From: Candidatus Woesearchaeota archaeon
GTDB lineage: Archaea; Nanobdellota; Nanobdellia; Pacearchaeales; GW2011-AR1
Direction: 5' to 3'
Length of the DNA stretch: 39,977 bases
NCBI GenBank assembly: GCA_964555925.1
Contig: CAZKUJ010000002.1
Location: 1 to 39,977 of the forward strand
In this document: one piece after another, positions 24,766 through 37,761 of the stretch
Layout: each line of letters opens with the position of its first letter
Numbering within the stretch: position 1 is the stretch's first letter
Position numbers and translations under genes: made by a program
The notes under the pieces: model-generated
Told to the model about the DNA's origin: nothing
The model's input: the letters and a program-made list of their open reading frames with translations, nothing else
Databases searched by the model: none

Positions 24766-24843
24766 TTATATTTTTAAATTAGTTATGTTTTTAAGCTTTT
24801 TGCGAAAAACCCTTATTATGAAATTCTATCGAATAATAATTAA

Positions 24844-24853
24844 TTTTATAAAA
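24844..24853 (+). promoter_or_regulatory. Array promoter copy 1 (TATA-like TTTTATAAAA, 30 nt upstream of the ATG)
   Basis: Part of the conserved ...(t)aattaatTTTTATAAA... block repeated upstream of every array gene. The spacing to the ATG implies a leaderless or very short-leader mRNA. Confidence 0.6.
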
Positions 24854-24873
24854 TCTATTTTATTAAGATATTA

Positions 24874-26517
24874 ATGAAAAAGAGTTTGATTTGTTTGCTA
24901 ATTTTTGTTTTTATATTATTTTTATTTCCGACGATTAATGCGGCGACAATTAATGCAAATTCTTGTTCTTTAGAAGATGTTCAGAAAGCAATCGATGCTG
25001 CAGAACCTGGAGATGTAGTTAGAGTTCCTGCTGGAAACTGTGTGTGGGGCACTGGAAGAAGGACCATAGACAGTGGTTTTTATGTTTATCCTTCTTTAGC
25101 AATTAATAAGTCTCTTGCTTTAATAGGTGAAGGAATCAATAAAACAAACATAACATGCACACATAACCAGAGTGCGATTATATACAAACCAGCAAACTTT
25201 TCTGCTAATGATCCTTTTAGAATTTCAGGATTTACTTTTGATTTTGATGACCAGTGCACAGGTATTAGGCTTTCATACAGTTATACTGATTTGACTATTC
25301 AAACAAAAATAAGAATAGACCACAATCACTTTAAAGATTCTGCTAGTCAGGCATTAACTATAAACGGTTACCGCGGAGTTGCTGACCACAATATATTCAC
25401 AGGCACCGATTATCCAATTCGATTCGCATCTGGAGATGACCATGACTGGTGGCAAAATTGGGAAGGAATTGTTTTTGGCAAGGCTGACAACAATTTTTAT
25501 TTTGAAGACAATATAATTGAGGCTTATGATGCAATGGTGGATTGTCAGTATGGAAACAGATATGCGTTTCGATACAATACTATTAGAGCATTAGGTCCAG
25601 CGTCATACCCACTTATGGACATGCATGGTGATGTAGGAACTGAAAGCGGCGGATGTGCTTATAGGTCATGTTTTGGCTCAGAAATATATGGAAATCACAT
25701 ATCACTTAATTCTGGTTATGCTGATTTTAGGGGCGGAAAACATGCTATCTTCTATAACTATATTTCTAAAACAGGAAATTTCTGGGGATTGCGTGATTCA
25801 GAGGGCGTATCATTAGGATGGGAAGCATGTGATTGTGTTTATTGTGATACTGATAACCCGCAGCCGCAGCATATTAGTGATAGCTATTCATGGAATAACC
25901 GCGGGAGTTCTTTGACAGGACCAATCTCTAACTTTTATAGCCGTGGCTTCGCGGATTGTGTGGAGAAATGTGGCTATATCGTAAATGAGAACGACGAGTT
26001 TTTCAATTTCAATCCTTCCTTTGATGGAACATCAGGCGTTGGATGCGATACTTTATCTGAAAGACCAGGCACATGCACTTTTGGTGTGGGTTATTGGGCA
26101 ACAGCTCAAAGCTGTTCTGATTTAACTGGATTTGTAGGGGCTAATCATACTAACATCATATCAGGCACACTTTACAAATGTACTTCTCCTAATACTTGGA
26201 CTGTTTATTACACACCTTACATCTATCCTCATCCACTTTCTGTCGCTCCATCTGGAACAAATATTTGTGATGAAGGAAAGATAATTTCAGAATGCTGGTG
26301 CGAAGGATTGAAATCTGTTGGTTATTGTTATAATGGATATTATTCTACAGAAGAAGGGGAGAGAATTATTCCACCACCTGCAGAAGAAGAGCAACCCTCT
26401 TTAGGTGGAGTTGCCACACTTCAAGACATGCTCAACTCTTATCAAAGATATAAAAGAAATGAGGTAAGTTTACTTTATTTCTTAGATAAATTGAGAAGCT
26501 GGATTATTTTCAGATAG
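24874..26517 (+). CDS. Array member 1: secreted right-handed beta-helix-like (pectin-lyase-fold-like) protein with conserved Cys-knot and C-terminal tail
   Basis: Signal peptide MKKSLICLLIFVFILFLFPTINA. N-cap ATINANSCSLEDVQKAIDAAEPGDVVRVPAGNCVW. Rung-like motifs IDHNHF, ADHNIF, FEDNII, FRYNTI, IYGNHI, FYNYI. 3' cassette from 26206: YYTPYIYPHPL, ICDEGKIISECWCEGLKSVGYCYNGYY, PPPAEEEQPSLG and the tail VATLQDMLNSYQRYKRNEVSLLYFLDKLRSWIIFR. Confidence 0.8.
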   Translation: MKKSLICLLIFVFILFLFPTINAATINANSCSLEDVQKAIDAAEPGDVVRVPAGNCVWGTGRRTIDSGFYVYPSLAINKSLALIGEGINKTNITCTHNQSAIIYKPANFSANDPFRISGFTFDFDDQCTGIRLSYSYTDLTIQTKIRIDHNHFKDSASQALTINGYRGVADHNIFTGTDYPIRFASGDDHDWWQNWEGIVFGKADNNFYFEDNIIEAYDAMVDCQYGNRYAFRYNTIRALGPASYPLMDMHGDVGTESGGCAYRSCFGSEIYGNHISLNSGYADFRGGKHAIFYNYISKTGNFWGLRDSEGVSLGWEACDCVYCDTDNPQPQHISDSYSWNNRGSSLTGPISNFYSRGFADCVEKCGYIVNENDEFFNFNPSFDGTSGVGCDTLSERPGTCTFGVGYWATAQSCSDLTGFVGANHTNIISGTLYKCTSPNTWTVYYTPYIYPHPLSVAPSGTNICDEGKIISECWCEGLKSVGYCYNGYYSTEEGERIIPPPAEEEQPSLGGVATLQDMLNSYQRYKRNEVSLLYFLDKLRSWIIFR

Positions 26518-26526
26518 TTTAATTAA

Positions 26527-26535
26527 TTTTATAAG
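26527..26535 (+). promoter_or_regulatory. Array promoter copy 2 (TTTTATAAG, 30 nt upstream of the ATG at 26557)
   Basis: Same conserved block (tttaattaattttataag). Confidence 0.55.
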
Positions 26536-26556
26536 TTCTGTTTTATTATGATATTA

Positions 26557-27822
26557 ATGAAAAAGAGTTTGATTTTACTATTTATTCTCGTTATTTTTTT
26601 ATTTCCGATTGTTACTACAGCTACTATCAATGCACCAAGTTGCTCGCAAACAGATGTGAGAGCTTTTGAATATACTCTAAAAGATATTCCTTCTGAAAAT
26701 TTAGCAGGAAGAATATTAAGTCAAATTGTCACAATCCAAGATATGTTAAATGCATATCAAGAATATAAACAAAATGAAGTGAGTATTTTATATTTTTTAG
26801 AAAAACTCAGGAGCTGGATTGTTTTTGACCTCCCTTCAGAAGAGATTATTTGTACAGCACATAATTATTCAAATTGTTCTAACGGAGATGTTTATTGGTA
26901 CGACAGTTGCAATGTGAAAGAAGAAATAAGATATGATTGTAATTCAACACAGACCTGTATTAATGGAGTTTGTGCAAACAATCTAATTTCTAACATCTCA
27001 ACAGAAGCAATAATTGTTGATTATACTTCTGCAGCAAGTTTTCAAAATATTCCTCAAGAATGGATAGAAAAAGCTAAAACAGATTTGCATATTGCTTATG
27101 GTCATACCTCTCATGGTAGCCAACTTATAACAGGTATGAATATGCTGGTTTCTGAAAAAGGTTTTCTTTATTCTTGGAATAATGGAGGAACCAATGGTGC
27201 TCTTGATATTAGAGATTATGCTAGTAATTTTGGGGGTTTGGGGATAGCTAATGATTTGGGAAATCCGAATTATACTGCATGGGCAACTGCTACTCGCATT
27301 TATCTAAATCAAAATCCAGATATAAATGTCATTATTTGGGCTTGGTGTTATCAAATGAATACAATCGAGGAGAACATAAATACTTATCTTAATTTGATGC
27401 ATCAACTTGAATTAGACTTTCCAAATGTTAGATTTGTTTATATGACAGGACATGTGACAGCAGGACAATTGTTATGCACAGATCCAACTCGGTGGGCTTG
27501 CGTGCATAATCTTCGTACTACACAAATACGTAATTTTGTCAATGCCAATAATGGTACTCTTTATGATTTTGCTGATATAGAAAGTTATGACCCAGATGGC
27601 AATTGGTATGCAGATAAATTAGTAACTGATAATTGCGATTATGATAGTAACAATGATGGTGTTGTTGATAGTAATTGGGCTATAAATTGGTGTAATTCTA
27701 ATTATTGTGTTCCTTGCTCTAGTAGTTGTGCCCACTCGCAATGCCTTAATTGTTATCTTAAAGGAGAAGCTGCGTGGTGGCTTTGGGCAAGATTGGCTGG
27801 TTGGAATGGAATATCTACTTAA
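26557..27822 (+). CDS. Array member 2 (chimeric): family signal peptide, N-cap stub and internal tail module fused to a Cys-rich domain and an unclassified domain
   Basis: MKKSLILLFILVIFLFPIVTTATINAPSCSQTDV is followed directly by IVTIQDMLNAYQEYKQNEVSILYFLEKLRSWIVF (nt 26728-26826). This reads through (DLPSEE...) into CTAHNYSNCSNGDVYWYDSCNVKEEIRYDCNSTQTCINGVC and a domain of about 290 aa (HIAYGHTSHGSQ, IIWAWCYQMN, FVYMTGH, YDFADIES). The track start at 26548 (MIL-) arises from a point variant (tatg versus taag in its paralogues). Confidence 0.75.
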   Translation: MKKSLILLFILVIFLFPIVTTATINAPSCSQTDVRAFEYTLKDIPSENLAGRILSQIVTIQDMLNAYQEYKQNEVSILYFLEKLRSWIVFDLPSEEIICTAHNYSNCSNGDVYWYDSCNVKEEIRYDCNSTQTCINGVCANNLISNISTEAIIVDYTSAASFQNIPQEWIEKAKTDLHIAYGHTSHGSQLITGMNMLVSEKGFLYSWNNGGTNGALDIRDYASNFGGLGIANDLGNPNYTAWATATRIYLNQNPDINVIIWAWCYQMNTIEENINTYLNLMHQLELDFPNVRFVYMTGHVTAGQLLCTDPTRWACVHNLRTTQIRNFVNANNGTLYDFADIESYDPDGNWYADKLVTDNCDYDSNNDGVVDSNWAINWCNSNYCVPCSSSCAHSQCLNCYLKGEAAWWLWARLAGWNGIST

Positions 27823-27840
27823 ATAAAACAATTTAATTAA

Positions 27841-27850: not shown

Positions 27851-27870
27851 TCTATTTTATTATGATATTA

Positions 27871-29364
27871 ATGAAAAAGAGTTTGATTTGTTTGATTATT
27901 TCTATATTTCTTTTGCTTCCAATTATTAGTGCTGCGACAATTAATGCACCAAGTTGTTCGCAGACTGATGTGCAGGCAGCTGCAAATGCAGCACAAGATG
28001 GAGATACTGTGCTCGTGCCTGCGGGAACTTGCACATGGTTTACATTAACTTCTAATGCGCCCGCACTTTTTATAGATAAGAAGAACATTATTCTTAATGG
28101 TGCAGGAATTGGAAAAACAATAATAATAGATGAAACTAGTGATGCAATCGGAACAAAATATGGAGAACACCTTATTACTGTAGAAGGAGTGGCTGGAAAG
28201 CCATTTAGAATAACCGGTTTTACGTTGAGAAGATATACCATAGGCGATACAGATTCGAGTTTTATCAATATTAGAGGTAGTGCAATGAATTGGAGAGTTG
28301 ATCATAACGAATTTATAACTTCTACATCGTTCGGAAGCCCCGATACTTGTGTCGGAACAAGTGGATTTACTTATGGACTTATAGATAATAATTTGTTTAG
28401 AGGTATGGGTAGAGTTGTAATTATGGGTGATGCAGATGCTTCCTGGAAAAGACCCTTAACTCTTGGAACTTCCAATGCAGTTTATATAGAAAATAATCAA
28501 TATAACAACTCACTTAATGGAACTTATATAATGAGTAATGCAGTTGATTCTAATAATGGGGGCAGATATGTTTTTAGGCACAATGATTGTGATGGAGGAT
28601 ATGTAGAAGCCCATGGTTCCCAATGGGGAAGAGGAACATTTAGCTATGAAGTTTATGAAAATGTAATCAGAGATTCTCCTGTAATTTGGGTTCCTTTTAG
28701 TTTTAGAGGAGGAACAGGAGTGATATTTAACAATACAGCTTATAATTTTTTATGGGGAGCAGACAGAATAAATATTTATTATGATAGGGCTTGTGGACCA
28801 TCTGGTTTAGAATGCGCTTGTGATGGTACATGCTATATTGACGGTAATCAAGAGAGCACTGGTTGGCCTTGTAGAGACCAACTTGGCAGATCAACTGATT
28901 ATGGTGTGGATTCTGTACACCCTCAAACTCATGAACCTGCTTATGAATGGAATAATACAAATTATATTAATGGCGTACCAAGTGATATCGATTTTATTCC
29001 TCATTCTGGTTGTGAAAGAAATGCTATACTGCTTAAGAGAGATATAGATTATTTTAATAACACAATCAGAGCAGATTATATACCTTACATCTATCCTCAT
29101 CCCCTTTCTGTTGCTCCATCTGGAACAGATATTTGTGGCGAAGGTGAAATAACAAATGAGTGCTGGTGCGAAGGATTGAAATCTGTGGGTTATTGTTATA
29201 ATGGATATTATTCTACAGAAGAAGGAGATAGAATTATTGAGCCTCCTGTCGAGCAATTTGTCACAATCCAAGAAATGCTAAATGCCTATCAAAATTACAA
29301 AAGAAATGAAGTTAGCATTTTGTATTTCTTAGACAAATTAAGAAACTGGATTGTGTTTTGGTAA
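27871..29364 (+). CDS. Array member 3: secreted beta-helix-like protein with conserved 3' cassette
   Basis: MKKSLICLIISIFLLLPIISAATINAPSCSQTDVQAAANAAQDGDTVLVPAGTCTW. Rungs VDHNEF, IDNNLF, IENNQY, FRHNDC, VYENVI, FNNTAY. DYIPYIYPHPLSVAPSGTDICGEGEITNECWCEGLKSVGYCYNGYY. Tail VTIQEMLNAYQNYKRNEVSILYFLDKLRNWIVFW. Confidence 0.8.
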   Translation: MKKSLICLIISIFLLLPIISAATINAPSCSQTDVQAAANAAQDGDTVLVPAGTCTWFTLTSNAPALFIDKKNIILNGAGIGKTIIIDETSDAIGTKYGEHLITVEGVAGKPFRITGFTLRRYTIGDTDSSFINIRGSAMNWRVDHNEFITSTSFGSPDTCVGTSGFTYGLIDNNLFRGMGRVVIMGDADASWKRPLTLGTSNAVYIENNQYNNSLNGTYIMSNAVDSNNGGRYVFRHNDCDGGYVEAHGSQWGRGTFSYEVYENVIRDSPVIWVPFSFRGGTGVIFNNTAYNFLWGADRINIYYDRACGPSGLECACDGTCYIDGNQESTGWPCRDQLGRSTDYGVDSVHPQTHEPAYEWNNTNYINGVPSDIDFIPHSGCERNAILLKRDIDYFNNTIRADYIPYIYPHPLSVAPSGTDICGEGEITNECWCEGLKSVGYCYNGYYSTEEGDRIIEPPVEQFVTIQEMLNAYQNYKRNEVSILYFLDKLRNWIVFW

Positions 29365-29403: not shown

Positions 29404-31137
29404 ATGAAAAAGAGTTTGATTTGTTTGATTATTTCTATATTTCTTTTGCTTCCAATTATTAGTGCTGCGACAATTAATGCACCAAGCTGTTCTTATTCAG
29501 ATGTTTCAGCAGCTGTTAATATAGCTAATTACGGCGATACTATTTTAGTTCCAGCTGGAACTTGTGTGTGGGATAAGATACTTACAATTACAAAAGGAAT
29601 AACTCTCCAAGGTGCAGGCATAGATAAAACAATAATTAAAAGCGATGGACCAAGTGGCACAGGTGTTTACACAATAGAATTTAATGCAGATCAAACAACA
29701 GCCACAAACGATTATCCTTTTCACTTGTCTGGTTTTACGTTTCAGCAAATATCTTCTTTGTATGGGAGCTTAGAATTAACAAATCAAGATATCACAAAAG
29801 CATTAACAAAAGTTGTAATTCACGACAATAAATTTATTGGCAGAACCGGTAGTGGCATTGGAATAGTTCATAATCATGGTGTTTTTGGAGTGATTTACAA
29901 TAATACAATCCAGGATGTATCACATGCCTGGCGCTTCCTCGGAGGACCTACTGGTTGGAATCAGGTTGAAGAATGGGTGCCTGGAACTGGTAATGCAATG
30001 TATTACGAAAACAATTATATTTATCTAACAGATGATTATTCCTCATCTCTAATAGTCAGTGGTGGGGCTGGAAATAGATATGTTGCCAGGTATAACACGA
30101 TTAATCTGTCAAAGCGAGGGTCTACTGTTTTTGCGCAATCATATGATATACATGGAAATCAAGAGAATAATCCTACAGGTGGAATTGGTCTTGAATTGTA
30201 TGGAAACCATCGCATTGGTACAAATGGTAGGTGGATAGATCATCGTGGTGGGCAAGTGTTTTTCTTTTTCAACAGGTGGAGTGGCAGTAGTGGGACTGGG
30301 TCTTTGAATATATGGGAAGAATATAACGACGACAATTTCATGGTAGTTTTCTGTCCTGAGGGGACTCGTTATGGCAGAACTGCTGACGGAAATTGCATTC
30401 AACGCCCCCGTGAATCATATTATTGGAGAAATTATGGTGGAGTTAATGGAATCACGCTTTCGAACACATTGAATATTCTATTTGATCATTATAACAGAGC
30501 TAACGGCATATTGAATGATCCATTTCTTCTGTTTGAAAATGATGGATGGTTTAGAGATAATACTCGTGCCTTTGATGGTACAATAGACGGGGTGGGCTCG
30601 TGCGGTTATTACAATGGAAATGCATGTACCAAAAGTGGAGTTGGCTGCGGAACTTTAGCGGAAATGAACGCAATAACACCCACTGCTTCTGGTCTTGGTT
30701 TTTGGGTGACAAACCAAAGCTGTACAGATTTAACAAGAATGACTGGCAGAAATCCAACTGTTCCGCTTTTTGGAACTCTGTATAGAGCTGAAAAAAACAG
30801 CGTTGGTAATTATGAATGGGTCGCGTATTACACGCCTTACATCTATCCACATCCACTTTCTGTTGCTCCATCTGGAACAAATATTTGTGGCGAAGGTGAA
30901 ATAACAAATGAGTGCTGGTGTGAAGGATTGAAAACAATTGGTTATTGTTATAATGGATATTATTATTCAGAAGAAGGGGAGAGAATTATTCCACCACCTG
31001 CAGAAGAAGAGCAACCCTCTTTAGGTGGAGTTGCCACACTTCAAGACATGCTCAACTCTTATCAAAGATATAAAAGAAATGAGGTAAGTTTACTTTATTT
31101 CTTAGATAAATTGAGAAGCTGGATTATCTTCAGATAG
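29404..31137 (+). CDS. Array member 4: secreted beta-helix-like protein with conserved 3' cassette
   Basis: The first 83 nt are identical to member 3. Rungs IHDNKF, IYNNTI, YENNYI, ARYNTI, LYGNHR, FFNRW. The 3' cassette from 30826 is a chimera of a member-7-like tract and a member-1-like tract. Confidence 0.8.
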   Translation: MKKSLICLIISIFLLLPIISAATINAPSCSYSDVSAAVNIANYGDTILVPAGTCVWDKILTITKGITLQGAGIDKTIIKSDGPSGTGVYTIEFNADQTTATNDYPFHLSGFTFQQISSLYGSLELTNQDITKALTKVVIHDNKFIGRTGSGIGIVHNHGVFGVIYNNTIQDVSHAWRFLGGPTGWNQVEEWVPGTGNAMYYENNYIYLTDDYSSSLIVSGGAGNRYVARYNTINLSKRGSTVFAQSYDIHGNQENNPTGGIGLELYGNHRIGTNGRWIDHRGGQVFFFFNRWSGSSGTGSLNIWEEYNDDNFMVVFCPEGTRYGRTADGNCIQRPRESYYWRNYGGVNGITLSNTLNILFDHYNRANGILNDPFLLFENDGWFRDNTRAFDGTIDGVGSCGYYNGNACTKSGVGCGTLAEMNAITPTASGLGFWVTNQSCTDLTRMTGRNPTVPLFGTLYRAEKNSVGNYEWVAYYTPYIYPHPLSVAPSGTNICGEGEITNECWCEGLKTIGYCYNGYYYSEEGERIIPPPAEEEQPSLGGVATLQDMLNSYQRYKRNEVSLLYFLDKLRSWIIFR

Positions 31138-31176: not shown

Positions 31177-32985
31177 ATGAAAAAGAGTTTTTTTGTTTGG
31201 ATTATATTGCTTTTTTTGATATTACCTCTTGTCAAAGCAGCAACCATCAACGCAAATTCATGCAACCTGGCAGATATTCAGAATGCTATTAATAGCGCAA
31301 GTTCTGGAGACACAATCATGGTGCCTGCGGGAAACTGCATATGGACTAGCACTCTTACGATTACCAAAGGCATTGCTCTTATCGGTGCAGGGGTGGGAAA
31401 AACCATCATTGATAAAACTACGAGTGGCGATATAATCAGTTACACCCTCCAAGAGCCCTTGGTCTATTCATCTTTTAGACTTTCAGGAATAGAATTTAAT
31501 CTGAACAACATAGCTTCAGGCCCCTATATTGACAATCCATCCCCTTATCATGAGCCAAGAATTCGCATAGACCATAATTATTTCTTAAACTGCGCAGGCC
31601 ATTCATGGAGATTGCAAGGCCAGGTTTATGGGGTGGTAGATAATAATCTTTTCACTGGAAACGCTTGGCAGCGCAGATATGGCAGTAATTCAATAAGTTG
31701 GAACAATATAGCTTATTCTTATGGTGGCGAAAAAAATTTATATGTGGAAGATAACATCATAGTCCAGAGCAAGTATGACGGATTGAACCAGTTAGGATTG
31801 GGATCTATACTTGTAGAGCGTTATAATACAATAAATTATACGAACCCGACTAGCAGTAGCAATTTTTATCCTTGGGATTCCCACGGAAATCAGGACTGGA
31901 ACTCAAACGATGCAGCTATGGGCAGAGAAATTTATGGCAACAAGATTGATGCTAATAATAAGAATGTCAAGCTCTTCTACCATCGTGGGGGCATGGCCCT
32001 GCTTTTCTGGAATAAGATAGTAAATTCCGGCTCGACATGGATAACTTTACAGGAAGAATGTGATGATTGCTCTTATGGCCATACGTGTGCTATTTGCAAC
32101 CCAAAACCAGCATGTAGCCCAAATGAGCAGCCTCAGCATGTTAGTGATTCTTATTATTGGAACAACAGATTTGGAAAGACCGGAACATCATTGGTTGTTG
32201 ACATAAGTTTGTCCAACTCGGATTCTGATTGTTCAGTGCGTAATTATTTAATCGCAGAAGACGTGGATGTTTTCTGGAATAAGGTGCCTTTTACTGGCAG
32301 TTCAGGAGTTGGATGTGGTACTTTGGCTAATAGACCTTCTACTTGTAATGTTGGTGTTGGATATTGGGCAACAGAACAAGATTGTTCTGGACTCGATGAC
32401 AAGAATGTAGGCGCAAATCCAACCGAGCCAATAACAGGGGTGCTTTATAAGTGTGGAAGCAACAATAATTGGATACCTTATTACACACCTTTTGTATATC
32501 CACACCCAATAAGGACAGATTGTGTCAGTTATCCTCTTCTTTGCGATTCTGATTTATCTTCTCCTTTTATTGATACAACTTCACCAATAAGGACTTCAGG
32601 ATATCCAACTGGGAATTTAAGTTCAGGAACAACTTCAATAACAATTGGATTAATAACAAATGAGGTAGCAACATGCAGATATTCAACAGCACCAGGAGTT
32701 TCTTATAGTTCAATGACAAATACTTTTTCAACAACAGGTTCAACAAGTCATTCAACATTAATAACAGGATTACAAAACGGAAACACTTACAATTATTATG
32801 TAAAATGCATTGATTCTTCTGAAAATGCAAATATCAATGATTATTTGATTAGTTTTAGTGTTTCTCCAACACCAAAAATAATTACCCTTCAGAATATGCT
32901 GAATGCATATCAAGAATACAAAAGAAATGAAGTTAGTATTCTGTATTTTTTGGATAAATTAAAAAATTGGATTGTGTTTTGGTAG
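31177..32985 (+). CDS. Array member 5: secreted beta-helix-like protein with an Ig/Fn3-like module in place of the Cys-knot, plus the family tail
   Basis: MKKSFFVWIILLFLILPLVKAATINANSCNLADIQNAINSASSGDTIMVPAGNCIW. Rungs IDHNYF, VDNNLF, VEDNII, VERYNTI, IYGNKI, FWNKI. YYTPFVYPHPIR is followed by about 115 aa of S/T-rich beta-sandwich-like sequence (ATCRYSTAPGVSYSSMTNTFSTTGSTSHSTLITGLQNGNTYNYYVKCIDSSENAN), then the tail ITLQNMLNAYQEYKRNEVSILYFLDKLKNWIVFW. Confidence 0.8.
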   Translation: MKKSFFVWIILLFLILPLVKAATINANSCNLADIQNAINSASSGDTIMVPAGNCIWTSTLTITKGIALIGAGVGKTIIDKTTSGDIISYTLQEPLVYSSFRLSGIEFNLNNIASGPYIDNPSPYHEPRIRIDHNYFLNCAGHSWRLQGQVYGVVDNNLFTGNAWQRRYGSNSISWNNIAYSYGGEKNLYVEDNIIVQSKYDGLNQLGLGSILVERYNTINYTNPTSSSNFYPWDSHGNQDWNSNDAAMGREIYGNKIDANNKNVKLFYHRGGMALLFWNKIVNSGSTWITLQEECDDCSYGHTCAICNPKPACSPNEQPQHVSDSYYWNNRFGKTGTSLVVDISLSNSDSDCSVRNYLIAEDVDVFWNKVPFTGSSGVGCGTLANRPSTCNVGVGYWATEQDCSGLDDKNVGANPTEPITGVLYKCGSNNNWIPYYTPFVYPHPIRTDCVSYPLLCDSDLSSPFIDTTSPIRTSGYPTGNLSSGTTSITIGLITNEVATCRYSTAPGVSYSSMTNTFSTTGSTSHSTLITGLQNGNTYNYYVKCIDSSENANINDYLISFSVSPTPKIITLQNMLNAYQEYKRNEVSILYFLDKLKNWIVFW

Positions 32986-33025: not shown

Positions 33026-34393
33026 ATGGATTATAAAGAGGGAAATAGGAAAGACGACGAAATTTTGAATTGGCATAGCAACAGAATTTCTTCTCACACA
33101 AGGAAATTGATTTTATTCTCTGTAATTATTTTTATTTTTTTGGCTGTTATTTTATCTTTTATTATTATACGTTATTATGATTATTCTTCAAGTCCTGAAA
33201 AAGAATTAGGTCTTGGAGCAAACATTTTAAATGCAGAATTAAATGAAGAAGAAAATAGTATCTATATTGCTTTAGAAGGAGGAAGTAAAGATAAAGAGAT
33301 TTCAGGTATTCGTTTTAATTTTGGAGATGACCAAGGAAAAACTTTTTCTTATTACACCACAGAAGGTGCAAACAATATTTCCTTGGATTATGAAATTTCC
33401 TTTTTAAGTTCATTGTTTAAAAAGCAGAAATTTAATGGTTTTTATGATTATGTGATTACTGCAGATGATTTAGGTTTATCCAGCTTAGGGGGTATTATAA
33501 GAGTTAGTGTGGAATTTATCTATAAAACTTTTGATGCAGGTGGGGGAAGCGTGGAGAAACCAACGCCTCTTTTAGATACAACTTCTGTTACAACCTCTTC
33601 TGGAGGTGGCGGAGGAAGTTCTTCTACAACAGATGAAGGCACAACAGAACCAACCACAACTATTTTTAATGAAACAGAAGAAACATTAGAATACGTTTAC
33701 ATTAATTTCTCTTCAGATAATAAACAATATTTTGAGATAAAAAATAATCTTTATTTTATTTTAGATATCTCAAATGAATCTGTGTCTAGTTTTGATTTTT
33801 ATGTTAATAGTAGTCAACAGCCACAAATATCTGTCACTAATGCAACAATTAGAATAAATGATTCCAGTAGTAGCACGCTTCTTCTAAAACTTCATAGACC
33901 AACCATCACTAATGTTAGCATATATAATACAAGTCAAACAAATATTTGGAGAGGAACTTTTAACTTCTCTTCTCCTTCAAACACACTTCTTTATTCAATT
34001 TACAATCTTAGTAGTTATCTTGATCAACCAATTAGTCAATATGTTTCAGGAAGCAATTCTTGTTATGGAATTTATACTTTCTATAACACTTCCTCAGTTG
34101 TCATGATGTGTGCATTAATGGACACAAGCACCCTAAGCTATACAATTCCCTCTGGAACTAATGTTAAAAATTATATCACAAGAGTAATTCCTGGAGGAGC
34201 AACTTATAGTGTAACAAACAATGATTCTTCAGATAATTACTTAAGTTCTTCAAATGGAGTTCTTAATTTTACTTCTTCAAGTGGAAATGTAAGTATATCT
34301 CTGGTTTCACAACCATCTATTACCGGGGGAGTTATTGGAGCATTAAAAAGAGATTTTTCTTCAATTATAAATTGGTTTAAGGAAATCTTTTAG
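33026..34393 (+). CDS. Embedded non-family gene: N-terminally anchored, sequon-rich (likely N-glycosylated) pilin-like surface protein
   Basis: 455 aa with a TM anchor (LILFSVIIFIFLAVILSFIII). A post-anchor module SIYIALEGGSKDKEISGIRFNFGDDQGKTFSYY resembles EVKVDVRRSPGGGDLIGIKFIFLDDSGSSH of the pilin-like gene at 10030. It has a linker TSSGGGGGSSSTTDEGTTEPTTT and at least 15 N-x-S/T sequons in the C-terminal half. Confidence 0.7.
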   Translation: MDYKEGNRKDDEILNWHSNRISSHTRKLILFSVIIFIFLAVILSFIIIRYYDYSSSPEKELGLGANILNAELNEEENSIYIALEGGSKDKEISGIRFNFGDDQGKTFSYYTTEGANNISLDYEISFLSSLFKKQKFNGFYDYVITADDLGLSSLGGIIRVSVEFIYKTFDAGGGSVEKPTPLLDTTSVTTSSGGGGGSSSTTDEGTTEPTTTIFNETEETLEYVYINFSSDNKQYFEIKNNLYFILDISNESVSSFDFYVNSSQQPQISVTNATIRINDSSSSTLLLKLHRPTITNVSIYNTSQTNIWRGTFNFSSPSNTLLYSIYNLSSYLDQPISQYVSGSNSCYGIYTFYNTSSVVMMCALMDTSTLSYTIPSGTNVKNYITRVIPGGATYSVTNNDSSDNYLSSSNGVLNFTSSSGNVSISLVSQPSITGGVIGALKRDFSSIINWFKEIF

Positions 34394-34401
34394 ATAATTA
34401 A

Positions 34402-34431: not shown

Positions 34432-35994
34432 ATGAAAAAGAGTTTGATTTGTTTGATTATTTCTATATTTCTTTTGCTTCCAATTATTAGTGCTACGACA
34501 ATTAATGCACCAAGTTGTTCGCAGACTGATGTGCAAGCTGCAGTTAATGCAGCGCAAGATGGAGATACTATTCTTGTGCCTGTAGGCGCGTGCACATGGA
34601 CAACAGTAGTAACTATTGATTTGTATTCTCCTGCTAAAGCTCTGACAATAAAAGGCGCTGGCATTGGGTTGACTAATATTACTGATTATGGTTTTGATGT
34701 GAAAGGAGGAGATGGCAAGCCTTGGCGCATAAATGGTATGACTATGAAGGGAAGCGCAGGCTTTTTCGTAGAAGGCGCATCAAAGAATTGGAGGATTGAC
34801 TACATCTACTTTGATCATGTGACAGGCAAAGCAAGTGCTTCTAATCGTATAATCTGGGTACAGGCATCAGGCACCCCTTCTGATTATAATAGTGGCGTTA
34901 TTGACCATTGTACTTTTGACAATGCCAATAACATAGTTAATATTCATGTCAGGGATGTTAGAGGAGGTAATACTGTTTGGAATAGGCCTCTTGGCCTTGG
35001 AGGAAGTGATGCGGTTTATATTGAGGACTGTAATTTTATTCATGTTCCAATGGCGCTTTCAGATGTTGATTGTGAAAGCGGTAGCTATGTATTCAGGCAC
35101 AACACAGTAAGAAATGGTAACTTAGGTATGCACGATGCAATCATCGGTGGCTTGCGAGGGTGCAAGAAATGGGAGATTTATGACAACCTCTTTATTAATG
35201 ATCCTGGCACAGGCCTTTGCGGTAACTTCGGCTTGAGAGGAGGAAATGGTGTTGTGTTCAATAATGTAGCCCAGGGAAGGCCTGACTGCAATGACGGCAT
35301 CTGGATTCAAACCTATAGGACAACTCAGCTCGGAGGAGACCCTTGGGATGTTCTCTGCGGCAGTTCATCAGGAATAAAAGCCTGCCTGGGCTCAGACAAC
35401 ACTTATCCACGACGCTGCACTTCTGATGCTGATTGTGGAGGCATTACTGGCTCTTGCATTGACATTGACAATTCTAGCAACCCCACAGGATATCCTTGCA
35501 GAGACCAATTGGGCTGGGAAGGAAACTTGATAAGGACATTGCGCCCAGTATTGTTTTGGAACAACACAATAGATGGAGCCTATGCTGTCCCCGTAGTTGT
35601 CAGAGGCCCAGAATATGTCATGAATGGAAGGGAATATTGCTATGGACCAACCATGCCAACTTCTTGCGGCGGAGTCGCCACAACTTATGTGCCTTATCCC
35701 TATCCTCATCCATTAAGTGTTGCGCAATTTGGAACAGATATTTGTGGCGAAGGAGAAATAACAAAAGAATGCTGGTGTGAAGGATTGAAATCTGTTGGTT
35801 ATTGTTATCATGGATATTATTATTCAGAAGAAGGGGAGAGAATTATTCCACCACCTGCAGAAGAAGAGCAACCTCCTTTAGGTGAAATTGTAACAATTCA
35901 AAACATGCTTAATGCTTATCAAAGATATAAAAGAAATGAAGTTAGTATTCTGTATTTCTTAGACAAATTAAGAAACTGGATTATTTTTAGATAG
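34432..35994 (+). CDS. Array member 6: secreted beta-helix-like protein with conserved 3' cassette
   Basis: MKKSLICLIISIFLLLPIISATTINAPSCSQTDVQAAVNAAQDGDTILVPVGACTW. Rungs IDYIYF, IDHCTF, IEDCNF, FRHNTV, IYDNLF, FNNVAQ. TTYVPYPYPHPLSVAQFGTDICGEGEITKECWCEGLKSVGYCYHGYY. Tail VTIQNMLNAYQRYKRNEVSILYFLDKLRNWIIFR. Confidence 0.8.
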   Translation: MKKSLICLIISIFLLLPIISATTINAPSCSQTDVQAAVNAAQDGDTILVPVGACTWTTVVTIDLYSPAKALTIKGAGIGLTNITDYGFDVKGGDGKPWRINGMTMKGSAGFFVEGASKNWRIDYIYFDHVTGKASASNRIIWVQASGTPSDYNSGVIDHCTFDNANNIVNIHVRDVRGGNTVWNRPLGLGGSDAVYIEDCNFIHVPMALSDVDCESGSYVFRHNTVRNGNLGMHDAIIGGLRGCKKWEIYDNLFINDPGTGLCGNFGLRGGNGVVFNNVAQGRPDCNDGIWIQTYRTTQLGGDPWDVLCGSSSGIKACLGSDNTYPRRCTSDADCGGITGSCIDIDNSSNPTGYPCRDQLGWEGNLIRTLRPVLFWNNTIDGAYAVPVVVRGPEYVMNGREYCYGPTMPTSCGGVATTYVPYPYPHPLSVAQFGTDICGEGEITKECWCEGLKSVGYCYHGYYYSEEGERIIPPPAEEEQPPLGEIVTIQNMLNAYQRYKRNEVSILYFLDKLRNWIIFR

Positions 35995-36003
35995 TTTAAT
36001 TAA

Positions 36004-36013
36004 TTTTATAAAT
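36004..36013 (+). promoter_or_regulatory. Array promoter copy 8 (TTTTATAAAT, 30 nt upstream of the ATG)
   Basis: tttaattaattttataaattatgttttcttggaatagaa; same subtype as copy 5. Confidence 0.6.
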
Positions 36014-36033
36014 TATGTTTTCTTGGAATAGAA

Positions 36034-37761
36034 ATGAAGAAGAGTTTGATTTGCTTGATGATTTATATATTTCTTTTGCTTCCAATTATTAGTGCTGCGA
36101 CAATTAATGCACCAAGTTGTTCGCAGACTGATGTGCAAGCTGCTATTGATAGTTCATCTTATGGTGACACAGTATTAGTTCCTGCTGGGAGTGCAACATG
36201 GATTACTAAGGCACAGGGATGTTCTGGCGATACTGCACTGTGTATTAAAAAAGGCATTAATCTTAAGGGGGGCATAGGTGGAGAGACAAGCATCTCTCTT
36301 TCTGGTTTAGCACCTTACGGAGCTATCTACTATGAACCTGATTCCACATCAATAAGTAATAATACTCCGTTTGAGTTTACAGGATTCACCATAAATGCAA
36401 ATAAAATCACATATCAAGAAGGGGTATTGGATGTTAGCAATTCAGGAACCACCCCCATTACTAAAGTAAGAATCCACGATAATACTTTTAAGAATGAACT
36501 TGCGGAGACAATTCAAATAAACGGCCCGGTATACGGCGTGGCTTATTCTAATTCCTTTATAGACTGCCAAACTGTTATAAGGACGGCGGGAGGCGATGGC
36601 AGGTCTTGGAATCTGAACCAAAGGGAATATGGCACTAGAAATAATTTTTTCTTTGAAGACAACACGGCAATCGCAACCACTGCCAAATCAACTGGTGCGT
36701 TCACGGCTGGCCAGGGCGGAAGCATTGTAATTAGGTATAACACCTATGATTTGGGACAGCTCTTGTTAGATGGAAACCAATGGCAAGACCTTCATGGACT
36801 GCAGAGCATGACAACTATTGATGGTAATGTGCAATGTGGTTACGCTCCATATAATGTTCCTAATTCTTGCCTACCTGAAGTAAAGTCTTGTGAGCAGTGG
36901 TCACAAATTAAATCAGAGTGGTATGGGAATATTCATACAAACTTTCGTAATCCATATAGCACAGCCCAAGAATGGATGCGTCTACGTGGAAGTTGGATGT
37001 TGATGTTTAATAATGTCATAACAGGAACAGGAATTATGCCATTACCTGATATTTATCAGTATTCTTGTGATAGCTGCCAGAGTGGCACTGGGCTAAGATA
37101 TTCCATGCATGTTCAGAATACGTATGTTTGGAATAATGTTGGGAATGGAGTTAACAGACCAATTTATGTCCTTCAGGACAATTGTGGAAGTTATGCTGTA
37201 GGCACTCCTTACACGATTACAGAAAATGTTGACTATTGGAACTATAATTCAAATATTCTTGACGGAAATACTCAAAAAGGAATAAATTGTGGGAGTTCTC
37301 CACCTACAGGCAGCTGTTCAATAGGAGATGGTTATTGGCAAACTTCGTATTCTCCCTGTTCAATGCCCCCTGCTGTCATGGCAGATATGAAAACCTATAC
37401 TCAAACAGGAAAGTTCTATAAATGCACTGCACCAAACACCTGGACAGAATATTACCAACCTTACATTTATCCACATCCATTAAGAGTTGCTCCATCTGGA
37501 ACAGATATTTGTGGCGAAGGTGAAATAACAAATGAGTGCTGGTGTGAAGGATTGAAAACAATTGGTTATTGTTATAATGGATATTATTATTCAGAAGAAG
37601 GGGAGAGAATTATTCCACCACCTGCAGAAGAAGAGCAACCCTCTTTAGGTGAAATTGTAACAATTCAAAATATGCTTAATGCTTATCAAAGATACAAAAC
37701 AAATGAAGTCACTCTTTCATATTTTTTGGATAAATTAAAAAATTGGATTGTGTTTTGGTAA
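36034..37761 (+). CDS. Array member 7: secreted beta-helix-like protein with conserved 3' cassette
   Basis: MKKSLICLMIYIFLLLPIISAATINAPSCSQTDVQAAIDSSSYGDTVLVPAGSATW. Rungs IHDNTF, YSNSF, FEDNTA, IRYNTY, WYGNIH, FNNVI. YYQPYIYPHPLRVAPSGTDICGEGEITNECWCEGLKTIGYCYNGYY. Tail VTIQNMLNAYQRYKTNEVTLSYFLDKLKNWIVFW. Confidence 0.8.
   Translation: MKKSLICLMIYIFLLLPIISAATINAPSCSQTDVQAAIDSSSYGDTVLVPAGSATWITKAQGCSGDTALCIKKGINLKGGIGGETSISLSGLAPYGAIYYEPDSTSISNNTPFEFTGFTINANKITYQEGVLDVSNSGTTPITKVRIHDNTFKNELAETIQINGPVYGVAYSNSFIDCQTVIRTAGGDGRSWNLNQREYGTRNNFFFEDNTAIATTAKSTGAFTAGQGGSIVIRYNTYDLGQLLLDGNQWQDLHGLQSMTTIDGNVQCGYAPYNVPNSCLPEVKSCEQWSQIKSEWYGNIHTNFRNPYSTAQEWMRLRGSWMLMFNNVITGTGIMPLPDIYQYSCDSCQSGTGLRYSMHVQNTYVWNNVGNGVNRPIYVLQDNCGSYAVGTPYTITENVDYWNYNSNILDGNTQKGINCGSSPPTGSCSIGDGYWQTSYSPCSMPPAVMADMKTYTQTGKFYKCTAPNTWTEYYQPYIYPHPLRVAPSGTDICGEGEITNECWCEGLKTIGYCYNGYYYSEEGERIIPPPAEEEQPSLGEIVTIQNMLNAYQRYKTNEVTLSYFLDKLKNWIVFW

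What the first reader, a model, noticed from the sequence alone, without database searches (positions are those of the whole stretch)
24838..37761. 13-kb head-to-tail array of seven modular paralogues with conserved ends and diverged beta-helix-like cores: candidate recombination-driven variable surface/secreted-protein system
Eight same-strand genes are separated by only 30-48 nt, and each has its own copy of one promoter block. Seven share six elements. (i) A near-identical signal peptide, MKKSLICLIISIFLLLPIISA. (ii) An N-cap, ATINA(P/N)SCSxxDVQxAxxxAxxGDTxxVPAGxCxW. (iii) A core of 300-450 aa with periodic hxxxNxF-type rungs plus conserved HG, RGG and WNN landmarks, consistent with a right-handed beta-helix or pectin-lyase fold as used by polysaccharide lyases and phage tailspikes; this core is highly diverged between members. 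(iv) YTPYIYPHPL. (v) A Cys knot, ICGEGEITNECWCEGLKxxGYCYNGYY. (vi) A PPPAEEEQPSLG linker and a 35-aa tail. Conserved ends flanking hypervariable cores in tandem, with evidence of tract exchange (see the next finding), resemble contingency or antigenic-variation families. In a DPANN-type episymbiont, such proteins could recognise or degrade host surface glycans, with the array providing a diversifiable repertoire. I do not recognise this exact architecture as a described system.
Basis: partly seen in the sequence, partly recalled or inferred. Interest (0 to 1): 0.88.

Follow-up and report, generated by a model that had tools for sequence, protein, structure and literature searches.

The report
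Archaeal tandem cluster of docked glycan-cutting enzymes
A small (Pacearchaeota-like, DPANN) archaeon carries eight back-to-back genes, six of them old and distinct versions of an uncharacterised secreted beta-helix sugar-polymer-cutting enzyme, which share recombining signal-peptide and dockerin-like "tail" ends; this is an enzyme toolkit, not an antigenic-variation system.

Summary
The array is real. It has eight same-strand genes with 30-40 nt spacers, each preceded by the 14-mer AATTAATTTTATAA. Sibling assemblies reproduce it at 99.9% identity or better. The count is six full paralogues (G1, G3, G4, G5, G7, G8), one chimera (G2) and one unrelated membrane glycoprotein (G6), not seven paralogues.

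AlphaFold2 and Foldseek confirm a right-handed beta-helix core. The family has no significant Pfam, NCBIfam, PHROG or close PDB match. It also occurs in bacteria (with T9SS, dockerin or GH10 fusions) and in tailed phages.

The cores are not hypervariable. They are ancient subfamilies scattered across the family tree, they keep all family-invariant residues, and the G4 core evolves under purifying selection (dN/dS about 0.06 against its orthologue).

The ends are similar for two reasons: family-wide constraint (N-cap, YxPYxYPHPL, Cys knot) and patchwork gene conversion (exact shared tracts of 30-160 nt with different partners). One contig shows a G1::G3 hybrid that deletes 2.9 kb.

The 35-aa tail aligns with the EF-hand/dockerin modules that sit at the same position in relatives (hhalign probability 90%). 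I read it as a docking tag without calcium-binding loops.

Best reading: a surface-docked glycan-depolymerase battery with concerted evolution of its ends. The contingency or antigenic-variation reading is not supported.

The parts
24838..24873 (+). Promoter block 1. It holds AATTAATTTTATAA with a TATA-like TTTATAAA core about 25 nt before the ATG. The same block sits before all eight genes: 26521, 27835, 29368, 31141, 32989, 34396 and 35998.
   Evidence: (D4).
24874..26517 (+). G1, 547 aa. Signal peptide, beta-helix core of the long subtype, Cys knot, P/E linker and tail.
   Evidence: The closest outside core is P0041 at 53%.
26548..27822 (+). G2, 424 aa, a chimera. Signal peptide, a 13-aa N-cap stub (ATINAPSCSQTDV), the tail module at residues 57-93, a Cys-rich mini-domain and an unrelated domain of about 300 aa with unknown function.
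   Evidence: An orthologue (P0136, 85%) sits in a second array of a relative. There is no significant Pfam or PDB hit.
27862..29364 (+). G3, 500 aa. Beta-helix of the short subtype (lacks the subdomain at G4 residues 412-472), Cys knot, shortened linker and tail.
   Evidence: It is the sister of G7 in the NJ tree.
29404..31137 (+). G4, 577 aa. Beta-helix of the long subtype, Cys knot, linker and tail. This is the member that was modelled.
   Evidence: AF2 gives pLDDT 88 and pTM 0.84. The orthologue L1b is 73% identical. Bacterial homologues with a T9SS sorting domain share 56-58% core identity.
31177..32985 (+). G5, 602 aa. Beta-helix of the long subtype, an Fn3/purple-acid-phosphatase-N-like module in place of the Cys knot, and the tail.
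   Evidence: PF16656 and PF12708, both weak; the same module is in P0142, P0143 and P0148.
33026..34393 (+). G6, 455 aa. Unrelated, lineage-specific membrane-anchored glycoprotein-like ORF with an N-terminal transmembrane segment, an S/T/G-rich linker and many NxS/T sequons. It has the same promoter block. It is a candidate partner or scaffold, and this role is inferred only.
   Evidence: An orthologue of 78-80% identity is embedded in the relative's second array. Only one other homologue was found. There is no Pfam or PDB hit.
34432..35994 (+). G7, 520 aa. Beta-helix of the short subtype, Cys knot, linker and tail.
36034..37761 (+). G8, 575 aa. Beta-helix of the long subtype, Cys knot, linker and tail.
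   Evidence: (P0109, 48%).
26320..26357 (+). 38-nt block identical to 29188-29225 in G3. It is the crossover site of the G1::G3 hybrid seen in contig L004, which deletes 2868 bp.
30829..31134 (+). C-terminal module of G4. It comprises YTPYIYPHPL, the Cys knot (a small beta domain), the PPPAEEEQPSLG linker and a 35-aa helix-loop-helix tail. Equivalent modules lie at 26209-26514, 29077-29361, 35686-35991 and 37453-37758. Tails alone lie at 26728-26826 and 32881-32982.

Best explanation
The locus is a chromosomal tandem cluster in a Pacearchaeota-like (DPANN) archaeon. It encodes a battery of secreted carbohydrate-active enzymes that are probably docked to the cell surface.

**Components**
- Six genes encode anciently diverged subfamilies of one uncharacterised right-handed beta-helix family. 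The likely activity is polysaccharide lyase or hydrolase ("depolymerase"). The same family is found in bacteria and in tailed phages.
- Each protein has a Sec-type signal peptide, the catalytic beta-helix with all family-invariant residues, and a family-typical Cys-rich mini-domain (replaced by an Fn3-like module in G5).
- Each also has a flexible P/E-rich linker (absent in G5) and a 35-aa helix-loop-helix tail.
- The tail is a derivative, without calcium-binding loops, of the EF-hand/dockerin-type docking modules found at the same position in relatives. It most likely holds the enzymes non-covalently on a cell-surface partner, possibly the co-clustered membrane glycoprotein G6.
- G2 shows that the tail is a portable tag, because there it is attached to a different cargo.
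- Each gene is transcribed from its own TATA/BRE-type promoter as a leaderless mRNA.

**Why the ends look conserved and the cores diverged**
- Part of it is family-wide structural constraint on the N-cap and the C-terminal motif.
- The rest is intragenomic concerted evolution: patchwork gene conversion and unequal crossing-over between the promoter/signal-peptide tracts and between the knot/linker/tail tracts.
- This recombination also changes copy number, makes hybrid genes, and lets new cores acquire the local export and docking ends.

**Shown versus inferred**
- Shown: the fold, the homology relationships, purifying selection on the G4 core (one orthologue pair), conversion tracts, and array differences between relatives.
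- Inferred: enzymatic activity and substrate (host or community glycans), docking by the tail, and the role of G6.
For: **Fold and family**
- The AF2 model of G4 has pLDDT 88, with the core above 95.
- The top Foldseek hits are all beta-helix lyases, epimerases or hydrolases (RbmB, PL6, AlgE4, pectin methylesterase) or phage pectate-lyase-like and tailspike proteins.
- The PDB profile search hits only the N-cap of pectin-lyase-fold proteins.
- Family-invariant residues E202, R229, N231, H250, Y266, Y481 and H483 are retained in all six paralogues.

**Enzyme context**
- Homologues are fused to T9SS sorting domains, dockerins, Fn3 and a GH10 xylanase domain.
- At least 121 IMG/VR contigs encode relatives. 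Four spot-checked contigs carry head, tail-sheath, minor-tail, tape-measure or lysis genes nearby.

**Ancient cores under purifying selection**
- Core dS is saturated and amino-acid identity is 22-41%.
- The nearest outside relatives of G1, G4, G5 and G8 share 43-73% identity.
- The paralogues are scattered in the NJ tree.
- G4 against orthologue L1b gives dN/dS of about 0.06.

**Concerted ends**
- The signal peptides of G3, G4 and G7 are identical at nucleotide level. Knot dS is 0.09-0.5.
- Exact shared tracts of 30-160 nt have a different partner in each segment.
- Contig L004 carries a G1::G3 hybrid with its crossover in a 38-nt identical block.

**Tail as a docking module**
- In relatives, the same position after the knot holds a canonical dockerin (PF00404) or an EF-hand plus two-helix module.
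- MAFFT co-aligns these modules with the tail, and hhalign gives 90% probability, E = 1.7e-6.
- The tail occurs on unrelated cargos and at the N-terminus in G2.

**Cluster behaviour**
- A relative has two arrays with different content, including G2 and G6 orthologues.
- A Pacearchaeota MAG has only two dispersed tail-bearing genes.

**Promoters**
Against: - No biochemical evidence or close solved structure exists. The best TM-scores are only 0.2-0.47, so lyase, hydrolase, epimerase or a pure binding role cannot be told apart.
- The tail has no Pfam hit, and its Ca-ligand positions are lost.
- Its AF2 model is only moderate (pLDDT about 75) and Foldseek finds nothing significant. The dockerin relationship therefore rests on profile similarity and positional equivalence.
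- No cohesin-like partner was identified. The role of G6 is guesswork based on co-clustering in two genomes.
- The L004 hybrid could be a chimeric assembly, because both halves are 100% identical to the window.
- dS between orthologues is near saturation, so the dN/dS value is approximate.
- The NJ tree sample is biased towards G4-like sequences.
Confidence: 0.62

Rival explanations
1. One reading: a contingency or antigenic-variation-like system. Recombination between conserved ends would diversify hypervariable cores to keep pace with changing host surfaces or to evade recognition.
For: - Conserved ends flank diverged cores in tandem.
- Tract exchange between ends is real.
- There is a candidate recombinant hybrid.
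- Array composition differs between related genomes.
Against: - Core dS is saturated and the cores belong to old subfamilies scattered over the tree.
- Outside relatives are closer than array mates.
- The orthologous core is 74% identical with dN/dS of about 0.06, as conserved as the ends.
- All family-invariant residues are kept.
- Every copy is full-length with its own promoter, so there are no silent cassettes.
- There are no simple-sequence repeats or invertible elements, and no reverse transcriptase or TR/VR pair was seen.
- Sibling samples give the same array at 99.9% identity or better.
- Exchanged tracts stop at the module borders and do not enter the cores.
Confidence: 0.07
2. The beta-helix proteins are non-catalytic adhesins or receptor-binding proteins, like tailspike-type binders. 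The episymbiont would use them to attach to host cells, and the different cores would give different host-glycan specificities.
For: - Beta-helices are common in adhesins and phage receptor-binding proteins (Foldseek hits to tail fibres and tailspikes).
- The DPANN lifestyle is consistent with this (inference).
- The proteins look surface-displayed: signal peptide, linker and tail.
- A heavily sequon-rich membrane protein, G6, is co-clustered.
Against: - A strictly invariant set of polar and charged residues (E, R, N, H, E, Y, R) runs across bacteria, archaea and phages. This is more typical of an active site.
- Bacterial homologues are fused to GH10 and carry T9SS or dockerin tags typical of secreted CAZymes.
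- Phage homologues carry signal peptides, so they are secreted rather than virion-bound.
- Many tailspikes are themselves depolymerases, so binding and cutting are not exclusive.
Confidence: 0.18
3. The cluster is a recently acquired foreign island of phage or bacterial origin, inserted between two tRNA genes. It would have no dedicated role in the archaeon.
For: - The array is bracketed by intron-containing tRNA genes.
- GC is higher (0.33-0.42 against about 0.30) and GC3 slightly higher (0.20-0.33 against 0.17-0.25) than in the flanks.
- The family is abundant in phages and bacteria.
Against: - There is no integrase, no att-like tRNA-fragment repeat and no phage gene in the window.
- Most of the GC excess is at codon position 2, which reflects amino-acid composition.
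- The genes use the archaeon's own TATA-type promoters and lineage-specific signal peptide and tail.
- Relatives carry related arrays at the same PspC-adjacent locus and at a second locus.
- Purifying selection acts on the G4 core.
Confidence: 0.08

Closest known systems
Right-handed beta-helix polysaccharide lyases and epimerases (Vibrio cholerae RbmB, PL6 alginate lyases/chondroitinase B, AlgE4 mannuronan C5-epimerase) and phage pectate-lyase-like depolymerases/tailspikes
   Same: - The predicted fold class is the same.
- The N-terminal cap motif (xSxxDIQxAIxxAxxGDTVxVPxG) matches.
- The proteins are secreted.
- They occur in phages next to structural genes.
- The presumed action is on extracellular polysaccharides.
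   Different: - There is no significant sequence match beyond the N-cap.
- TM-scores are only 0.2-0.47.
- The proteins have their own invariant residue set and a family-specific YxPYxYPHPL plus Cys-knot C-terminus.
- There is no hit above the curated cut-off in Pfam or NCBIfam and no PHROG hit.
- Activity and substrate are unknown.
Cellulosome-type systems (dockerin-tagged enzymes on cohesin scaffoldins) and T9SS-CTD-tagged secreted CAZymes
   Same: - Several different catalytic cargos share one short C-terminal tag behind a flexible linker.
- Relatives of these very enzymes carry true dockerins or T9SS sorting domains in that position.
- The tail aligns with EF-hand/dockerin-type modules.
   Different: - The tail has lost both calcium-binding loops and does not match PF00404.
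- No cohesin or scaffoldin was found.
- The tag can also sit near the N-terminus, as in G2.
- The tag is found in only 33 cluster representatives out of 1.84 billion (counting knot or tail) and in one GTDB genome.
- Docking is inferred, not shown.
Tandem paralogue families with concerted evolution of their ends (gene conversion or unequal crossing-over in surface or secreted protein gene clusters)
   Same: - There is a patchwork of exact tracts with different partners.
- The tracts are confined to the 5' promoter/signal-peptide and 3' modules.
- There is a hybrid-gene deletion variant.
   Different: - The cores are not variants generated by the system. They are old, separately conserved enzyme subfamilies.
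- There is no expression-site logic or phase-variation machinery.

Membership tests
Pectin-lyase-fold (right-handed parallel beta-helix) superfamily | The core folds as a right-handed parallel beta-helix. | tested here: met
   The AF2 model of G4 has pLDDT 88 and a regular series of short strands. All significant Foldseek hits in PDB and BFVD are beta-helix proteins.
Pfam Beta_helix (PF13229) / Pect-lyase_RHGA_epim (PF12708) / TIGR03805 | A score above the curated gathering cut-off. | tested here: not met
   There are only sub-threshold N-cap hits. PF12708 scores 22.3 against a cut-off of 27 in G5. TIGR03805 scores 17-24 against a cut-off of 141.5.
Characterised lyase/epimerase families with solved structures (PL6, AlgE, RbmB, PL1/PL9) | Sequence homology across the catalytic region, or a close structural match (TM above 0.5) with a shared catalytic constellation. 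| tested here: not met
   The PDB profile search aligns mostly the first ~90 profile positions (N-cap), only two marginal E=0.01 epimerase hits reaching position 275. Foldseek TM-scores are 0.2-0.47 with E of 3e-4 or weaker.
CAZy family assignment (any PL/GH family) | A match to a CAZy/dbCAN family model. | not testable with these tools
   No dbCAN or CAZy library was available. The fusion of homologue P0012 to GH10 only suggests a carbohydrate-enzyme context.
Type I dockerin (PF00404) | A duplicated 22-residue segment, each with an EF-hand-like Ca-binding loop (DxNxDGxIxxxD) plus a helix, and a Pfam match. | tested here: not met
   The window tail has no Pfam hit (protein 9). In the co-alignment the first Ca-binding loop of relatives has no counterpart in the window sequence (linker instead) and the second-loop region reads ...YKRNEVS..., which has no DxNxDG-type acidic loop (my reading). 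The two-helix layout is kept.
EF-hand/dockerin-like docking modules (homology, not membership) | Profile-level similarity and the same position in the domain architecture. | tested here: met
   hhalign of tail against module gives probability 90%, E = 1.7e-6 over 33 columns. MAFFT co-aligns the tail with dockerin and EF-hand modules after the knot. The EF-hand_1 hit in a relative's module scores 25.8, above the cut-off of 25.4. Structural confirmation failed.
Cellulosome-like system | A cohesin-bearing scaffoldin that binds the tag. | tested here: inconclusive
   No cohesin Pfam hit was found in the array genes or in the 10 flanking proteins that were scanned. G6 is a candidate only because it is co-clustered. 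No interaction test was possible.
Contingency / antigenic-variation gene families | Variable regions that turn over fast or are under diversifying selection between close relatives. | tested here: not met
   The G4 and L1b cores are 74% identical, with pN 0.16 against pS 0.74. The cores are ancient and scattered in the tree. Sibling samples are 99.9% identical or better.
Contingency / antigenic-variation gene families | A switching mechanism: silent cassettes plus an expression site, simple-sequence repeats, invertible promoters, or a DGR reverse transcriptase with TR/VR. | tested here: not met
   All copies are complete with their own promoter. There are no simple-sequence repeats or meaningful inverted repeats. 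The shared tracts lie in the ends only.
Contingency / antigenic-variation gene families | Recombination or gene-conversion tracts between members. | tested here: met
   Exact tracts of 30-160 nt occur with changing partners. There is a G1::G3 hybrid contig.
Integrated mobile element / prophage island | An integrase, att repeats at a tRNA, and phage or plasmid genes. | tested here: not met
   No att-like repeat was found. Flanking genes are housekeeping: PheRS, PPDK, a glycosyltransferase, PspC and Fic.

The most novel reading that the evidence does not exclude
DPANN (Pacearchaeota) archaea may have a minimal, calcium-independent, cellulosome-like display system. In it, a 35-aa degenerate dockerin tail plugs a changeable battery of beta-helix glycan depolymerases, and other cargos such as G2, onto a dedicated membrane-anchored glycoprotein scaffold (G6). 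The enzymes would be used to breach or graze host or biofilm glycans. The recombining promoter/signal-peptide and knot/tail ends would act as "adapters" that let cores captured from bacteria or phages be plugged into the system.
Probability: 0.15. Interest if true: 0.8.

Novelty: new variant of a known kind. Interest (0 to 1): 0.5.

Why it matters
- **DPANN biology.** DPANN archaea have tiny genomes and poorly understood cell-cell interactions. Devoting about 13 kb to six distinct secreted beta-helix enzymes with a common docking tag points to extracellular glycan degradation, of host envelopes or biofilm matrix, as an important part of their lifestyle.
- **A large uncharacterised enzyme family.** The family has no significant Pfam, NCBIfam or PHROG match and no close solved structure. 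It is shared by bacteria, tailed phages and archaea, and it is a good target for biochemical characterisation.
- **A possible new docking module.** The tail may be a new module derived from dockerins.
- **A clean example of concerted evolution.** Gene conversion of export and anchor modules can mimic a "hypervariable cassette" pattern. This is a useful caution when scanning genomes.

Tried and rejected
- **Short C-terminal query.** A word-index homologue search with the 102-aa C-terminal module returned only one protein. The query was too short and the search was wasted.
- **Foldseek on the knot+tail model.** There were no significant hits, so the dockerin relationship has no structural confirmation.
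- **Metagenome and GTDB scans with the C-terminal profile.** Only one Pacearchaeota MAG was found. These scans gave no further arrays.
- **G6 homologues and structure.** G6 has only one distant homologue and no PDB hit. No fold was obtained for G6 or for G2's extra domain.
- **Cluster-member lookup for organism names.** It gave no names.
- **Literature.** I found no description of this architecture or of dockerin-like tags in DPANN.
- **Rejected: assembly artefact.** Sibling assemblies agree.
- **Rejected: integrated element.**
- **Rejected: phase variation or DGR.**
- **Rejected: P0127 as a multi-tail protein.** It is a spurious hit to an unrelated repeat.

Full report
**1. What is there**

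ORF listing shows eight same-strand genes between 24874 and 37761:

| Gene | Coordinates | Length |
|---|---|---|
| G1 | 24874-26517 | 547 aa |
| G2 | 26548-27822 | 424 aa |
| G3 | 27862-29364 | 500 aa |
| G4 | 29404-31137 | 577 aa |
| G5 | 31177-32985 | 602 aa |
| G6 | 33026-34393 | 455 aa |
| G7 | 34432-35994 | 520 aa |
| G8 | 36034-37761 | 575 aa |

- Spacers are 30-40 nt.
- The exact 14-mer AATTAATTTTATAA occurs eight times, once before each gene. The expected count is 0.5 and no shuffle reached eight.
- Its TTTATAAA core is centred about 25 nt upstream of each ATG. This is the geometry of an archaeal TATA box driving a leaderless mRNA (my inference from established archaeal promoter architecture).
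- TTTATAA is also over-represented throughout the window, with 65 matches against about 30 expected. It lies just upstream of several other ORF starts (my comparison). The block therefore looks like the organism's generic promoter with an extended shared 5' part.
- The window is archaeal and chromosomal. It has intron-containing tRNA genes that Rfam finds but ARAGORN misses, and it encodes PheRS alpha and beta, a PPDK-like enzyme, a glycosyltransferase, Fic and a PspC-like gene (PspC from the annotation of the relative's contig).
- The only GTDB genome that carries the characteristic tail is a Candidatus Pacearchaeota MAG.
- Independent contigs from sibling samples reproduce window 26399-39977 with 4 mismatches, and sub-regions at 99.9-100%. 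The array is not an assembly artefact. Contigs tend to break inside the repeated modules.

**2. Correcting the inventory**

- The alignment and BLAST show six full paralogues: G1, G3, G4, G5, G7 and G8.
- Five of them carry the Cys knot and the P/E linker. G5 has an Fn3/purple-acid-phosphatase-N-like module instead (weak). G3 has a short linker.
- G2 is a chimera. It has the signal peptide, a 13-aa stub of the N-cap (ATINAPSCSQTDV), and the tail at residues 57-93. A Cys-rich mini-domain and an unrelated domain of about 300 aa follow. It has no significant Pfam or PDB match.
- G6 is unrelated. It has an N-terminal transmembrane anchor, an S/T/G-rich linker and many NxS/T sequons. It has no Pfam or PDB match and only one distant homologue in 5.8 billion clusters.

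**3. What the core is**

- With a 109-sequence alignment, AlphaFold2 models G4 at pLDDT 88 and pTM 0.84. Residues 22-485 are mostly above 95 and form a regular stack of short strands.
- In the PDB, all Foldseek hits with E below 1e-2 are right-handed beta-helix enzymes: RbmB VPS lyase, PL6 alginate lyases, AlgE4-type epimerases, an alpha-1,3-glucanase catalytic domain (Agl-KA) and phage E2 ORF18. TM-scores are only 0.2-0.47.
- In BFVD, the hits are phage "pectate lyase superfamily", tail-fibre and tailspike proteins.
- A profile search of PDB sequences aligns mainly the N-cap. Pfam, NCBIfam and PHROGs give nothing above their cut-offs.
The family, however, is an uncharacterised branch of the pectin-lyase-fold superfamily.
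- Across 109 homologues, E202, R229, N231, H250, Y266, Y481, P482, H483 and L485 (G4 numbering) are invariant, and about 30 more positions are nearly so. All six window paralogues keep E202, R229, N231, H250, Y266, Y481, P482 and H483; L485 is I in G5.
- G3 and G7 lack a subdomain of about 60 aa (G4 residues 412-472), which defines a short subtype.

**4. Where else the family occurs**

- G4's core is 55-58% identical to bacterial proteins that end in T9SS sorting domains (Calditrichaceae, Bacteroidetes). P0006, at 55% identity over 91% of G4, carries the knot plus a dockerin. P0012, at 49%, also carries a GH10 domain.
- The dockerin-bearing homologue P0006 is a single-copy gene among bacterial housekeeping genes.
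- A scan of IMG/VR found 121 viral contigs that encode relatives, many of them full-length at 25-41% identity.
- Spot checks with PHROGs found bona fide phage genes nearby: major head, tail sheath, minor tail, tape measure and endolysin.
- The phage copies carry signal-peptide-like N-termini, so they are probably secreted rather than built into the virion.
- This distribution, secretion and anchoring tags, a CAZyme fusion and phage carriage, supports a polysaccharide-depolymerase function. That function is inferred, not shown.

**5. Are the cores hypervariable? No**

- Within the array, core identity is 22-41% and synonymous sites are saturated.
- The G1, G4, G5 and G8 cores have closer relatives outside the window (53%, 73%, 43% and 48%) than within it. 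This holds even though the sequence sample was collected with G4 as the query.
- In an NJ tree of 130 domains, the window paralogues are scattered. Their pairwise MRCA clades contain 59-130 of the 130 leaves. Only G3 and G7 are sisters.
- Between G4 and its orthologue L1b in a related organism (ENA ZHEN22-1 scaffold), the core is 74% identical. The N-cap, knot and tail are 71-81% identical, and the signal peptide is only 43%. Core pN is 0.16 and pS 0.74, so dN/dS is about 0.06.
- The cores are therefore old, functionally constrained subfamilies and not products of a local diversification mechanism.
- There are no simple-sequence repeats, invertible segments or silent cassettes.

**6. Why the ends look alike**

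Part of the similarity is family-wide. The N-cap consensus and YxPYxYPHPL are conserved in bacterial and phage members too. The Cys knot follows this beta-helix in many unrelated organisms.

The rest is intragenomic homogenisation:

- The 63-nt signal-peptide coding region is identical in G3, G4 and G7.
- Knot+linker dS is 0.09-0.5, against saturated cores.
- The tails form a mosaic. G1 and G4 are 99% identical at nucleotide level, while other pairs have dS from 0.5 to saturation and dN of about 0.1-0.2.

Exact shared tracts change partner along a gene:

| Pair | Length | Region |
|---|---|---|
| G1-G4 | 160 nt | linker/tail |
| G4-G8 | 147 nt | knot/linker |
| G3-G4 | 90 nt | promoter/signal peptide |
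| G4-G7 | 80 nt | promoter/signal peptide |
| G3-G8 | 72 nt | signal peptide/N-cap |

This pattern is the signature of patchwork gene conversion. The tracts stop at the core borders.

**7. A candidate recombinant**

- Protein P0019 equals G1 residues 1-495 followed by G3's C-terminus.
- Its contig, L004 (ENA ERZ27248939, 3146 bp), equals window 24600-26357 joined to 29188-30613. It is 100% identical on both sides.
- The switch lies within a 38-nt block shared by G1 and G3 (26320-26357 = 29188-29225). The join removes G1's tail, all of G2 and the body of G3, a total of 2868 bp.
- A sibling sample carries the full arrangement.
- The shared block (38 nt) is much shorter than the assembler's final k of 141 (k inferred from the contig name), so I consider a real unequal-crossover haplotype more likely than a chimera. 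Only read mapping can settle this.

**8. Arrays in relatives**

- The ZHEN22-1 relative has, at the same PspC-adjacent locus, a different paralogue (L1a, 36% to G1), the G4 orthologue, and a classical beta-helix protein with the same signal peptide. All three contigs break there.
- At a second locus it has a five-gene array. The genes are a Big_7-like (weak hit) classical beta-helix + Fn3-like + tail protein (P0148), the G2 orthologue (85%), a knot+tail member of this family (P0122), the G6 orthologue (78-80%) and a Pel9A-like beta-helix + tail protein. The spacers there carry a related TATA-type block (exact 14-mer before two of the five genes).
- The Tanganyika Pacearchaeota MAG has only the single 736-aa gene at that second locus, plus one dispersed family member elsewhere.
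- Arrays therefore grow, shrink and exchange members between loci. G2 and G6 travel with the tail-bearing enzymes.

**9. The tail**

- A profile of knot+linker+tail finds only 33 cluster representatives among 1.84 billion.
- In those proteins the knot is followed by one of three things. It may be a canonical dockerin (PF00404). It may be an EF-hand loop plus a two-helix "WK" module, which hits EF-hand_1 at 25.8 bits against a cut-off of 25.4. Or it may be the window-type tail.
- MAFFT places all three in register. hhalign of tail against WK module gives 90% probability and E = 1.7e-6 over 33 columns.
- The tail keeps the two helices. It lacks the Ca-binding loops (my reading of the alignment) and has no Pfam match.
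- Foldseek on the moderate model (pLDDT 69) found nothing.
- The tail also sits on other cargos: classical beta-helices, Fn3-like modules, and near the N-terminus in G2 and its orthologue.
- I conclude that it is a portable docking tag derived from dockerin/EF-hand-type modules. Homology is moderately supported, and the function is inferred.
- The partner is unknown. G6 is a candidate only because it is membrane-anchored and co-clustered in two genomes.

**10. Rivals**

- Contingency or antigenic variation is contradicted by sections 5 and 6.
- A purely adhesive role cannot be excluded. It fits the invariant polar residues and the CAZyme-type contexts less well.
- A foreign island is unlikely. 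There is no integrase or att repeat. The GC excess is mostly at codon position 2. The promoters and tags are native, and related arrays occur in relatives.

**11. Verdict**

The fold call is right and the recombination idea is right for the ends. The "hypervariable contingency system" reading is wrong.
- The locus is best described as a tandem, concertedly evolving cluster of secreted, dockerin-like-tagged beta-helix depolymerases from an uncharacterised family that is widespread in bacteria, phages and archaea.
- This is a new variant of known kinds (CAZyme clusters, cellulosome-like tagging, concerted evolution), and its interest is moderate.
- The most novel reading still open is a minimal cellulosome-like display system in DPANN archaea with G6 as scaffold (probability about 0.15).

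Noticed in passing
window 24267-24420 (-), 37795-37925 (-), 492-641 (-), 1130-1259 (-): Four tRNA genes of 130-154 nt, probably intron-containing, are found by Rfam but missed by ARAGORN. Two of them bracket the array directly. No att-like repeat is associated with them.
   Followed up: partly
window 33026-34393 (+), G6; L008 12785-14161: G6 is a lineage-restricted membrane-anchored ORF rich in N-glycosylation sequons. It is embedded in tail-bearing enzyme arrays in two organisms at 78-80% identity. Its conserved C-terminus ...RDFSSIINWFKEIF loosely resembles the second helix of the tail. Its function is unknown.
   Followed up: partly
window 26548-27822 (+), G2: G2 carries the docking tail near its N-terminus, after a 13-aa stub of the beta-helix N-cap. 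A Cys-rich mini-domain and an unknown domain of about 300 aa (motif HIAYGHTSHGSQ) follow. The stub is identical in protein to G3, G7 and G8 but differs at 6 synonymous sites. In the orthologue P0136 the stub is degenerate.
   Followed up: partly
L014, L015, L016, L017, L019 (IMG/VR contigs): Phage homologues of the beta-helix family carry signal-peptide-like N-termini. In L016, L017 and L019 they sit next to one or two further small signal-peptide proteins. In L014, L016 and L017 they lie within or next to head/tail structural gene modules. This is unusual for virion proteins and suggests secreted phage depolymerase cassettes.
   Followed up: partly
window about 38300-39977 (+), runs off the end: A large secreted or surface ORF, 785-831 aa or more in sibling contigs, with many NxS/T sequons and internal repeats. 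These include 55-nt direct repeats at 39856-39976 and an 18-nt tandem repeat at 39169-39226.
   Followed up: no
window 17694-19712 (-): A 672-aa protein with a sub-threshold MG2 (alpha-2-macroglobulin-like) domain hit. An ORF of the same length, strand and relative position next to the PPDK gene is present in the ZHEN22-1 relative (L001); the sequences were not compared.
   Followed up: no
window 23352-24296 (-) and 24553-24765 (-): A Fic/DOC-family protein and a small PspC-like membrane protein lie immediately upstream of the array. The PspC gene also precedes the related array in L001-L003.
   Followed up: no
window 9994-11121 (+): A 363-aa ORF whose N-terminal hydrophobic segment resembles that of an archaeal pilin-like ORF in the Pacearchaeota MAG (L006) (...KKALSDIVASLIIILLVIVAAGI...). 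It is preceded by GATTAATTTTATAA, the only near-copy of the array promoter block outside the array apart from a reverse-strand overlap of the G4 block.
   Followed up: no
window 25000-37800 versus the flanks: GC is 0.33-0.42 in the array against about 0.30 in the flanks. Most of the excess is at codon position 2 (0.43-0.46 against about 0.30), which reflects amino-acid composition. GC3 is only mildly raised (up to 0.33 against 0.17-0.25).
   Followed up: yes
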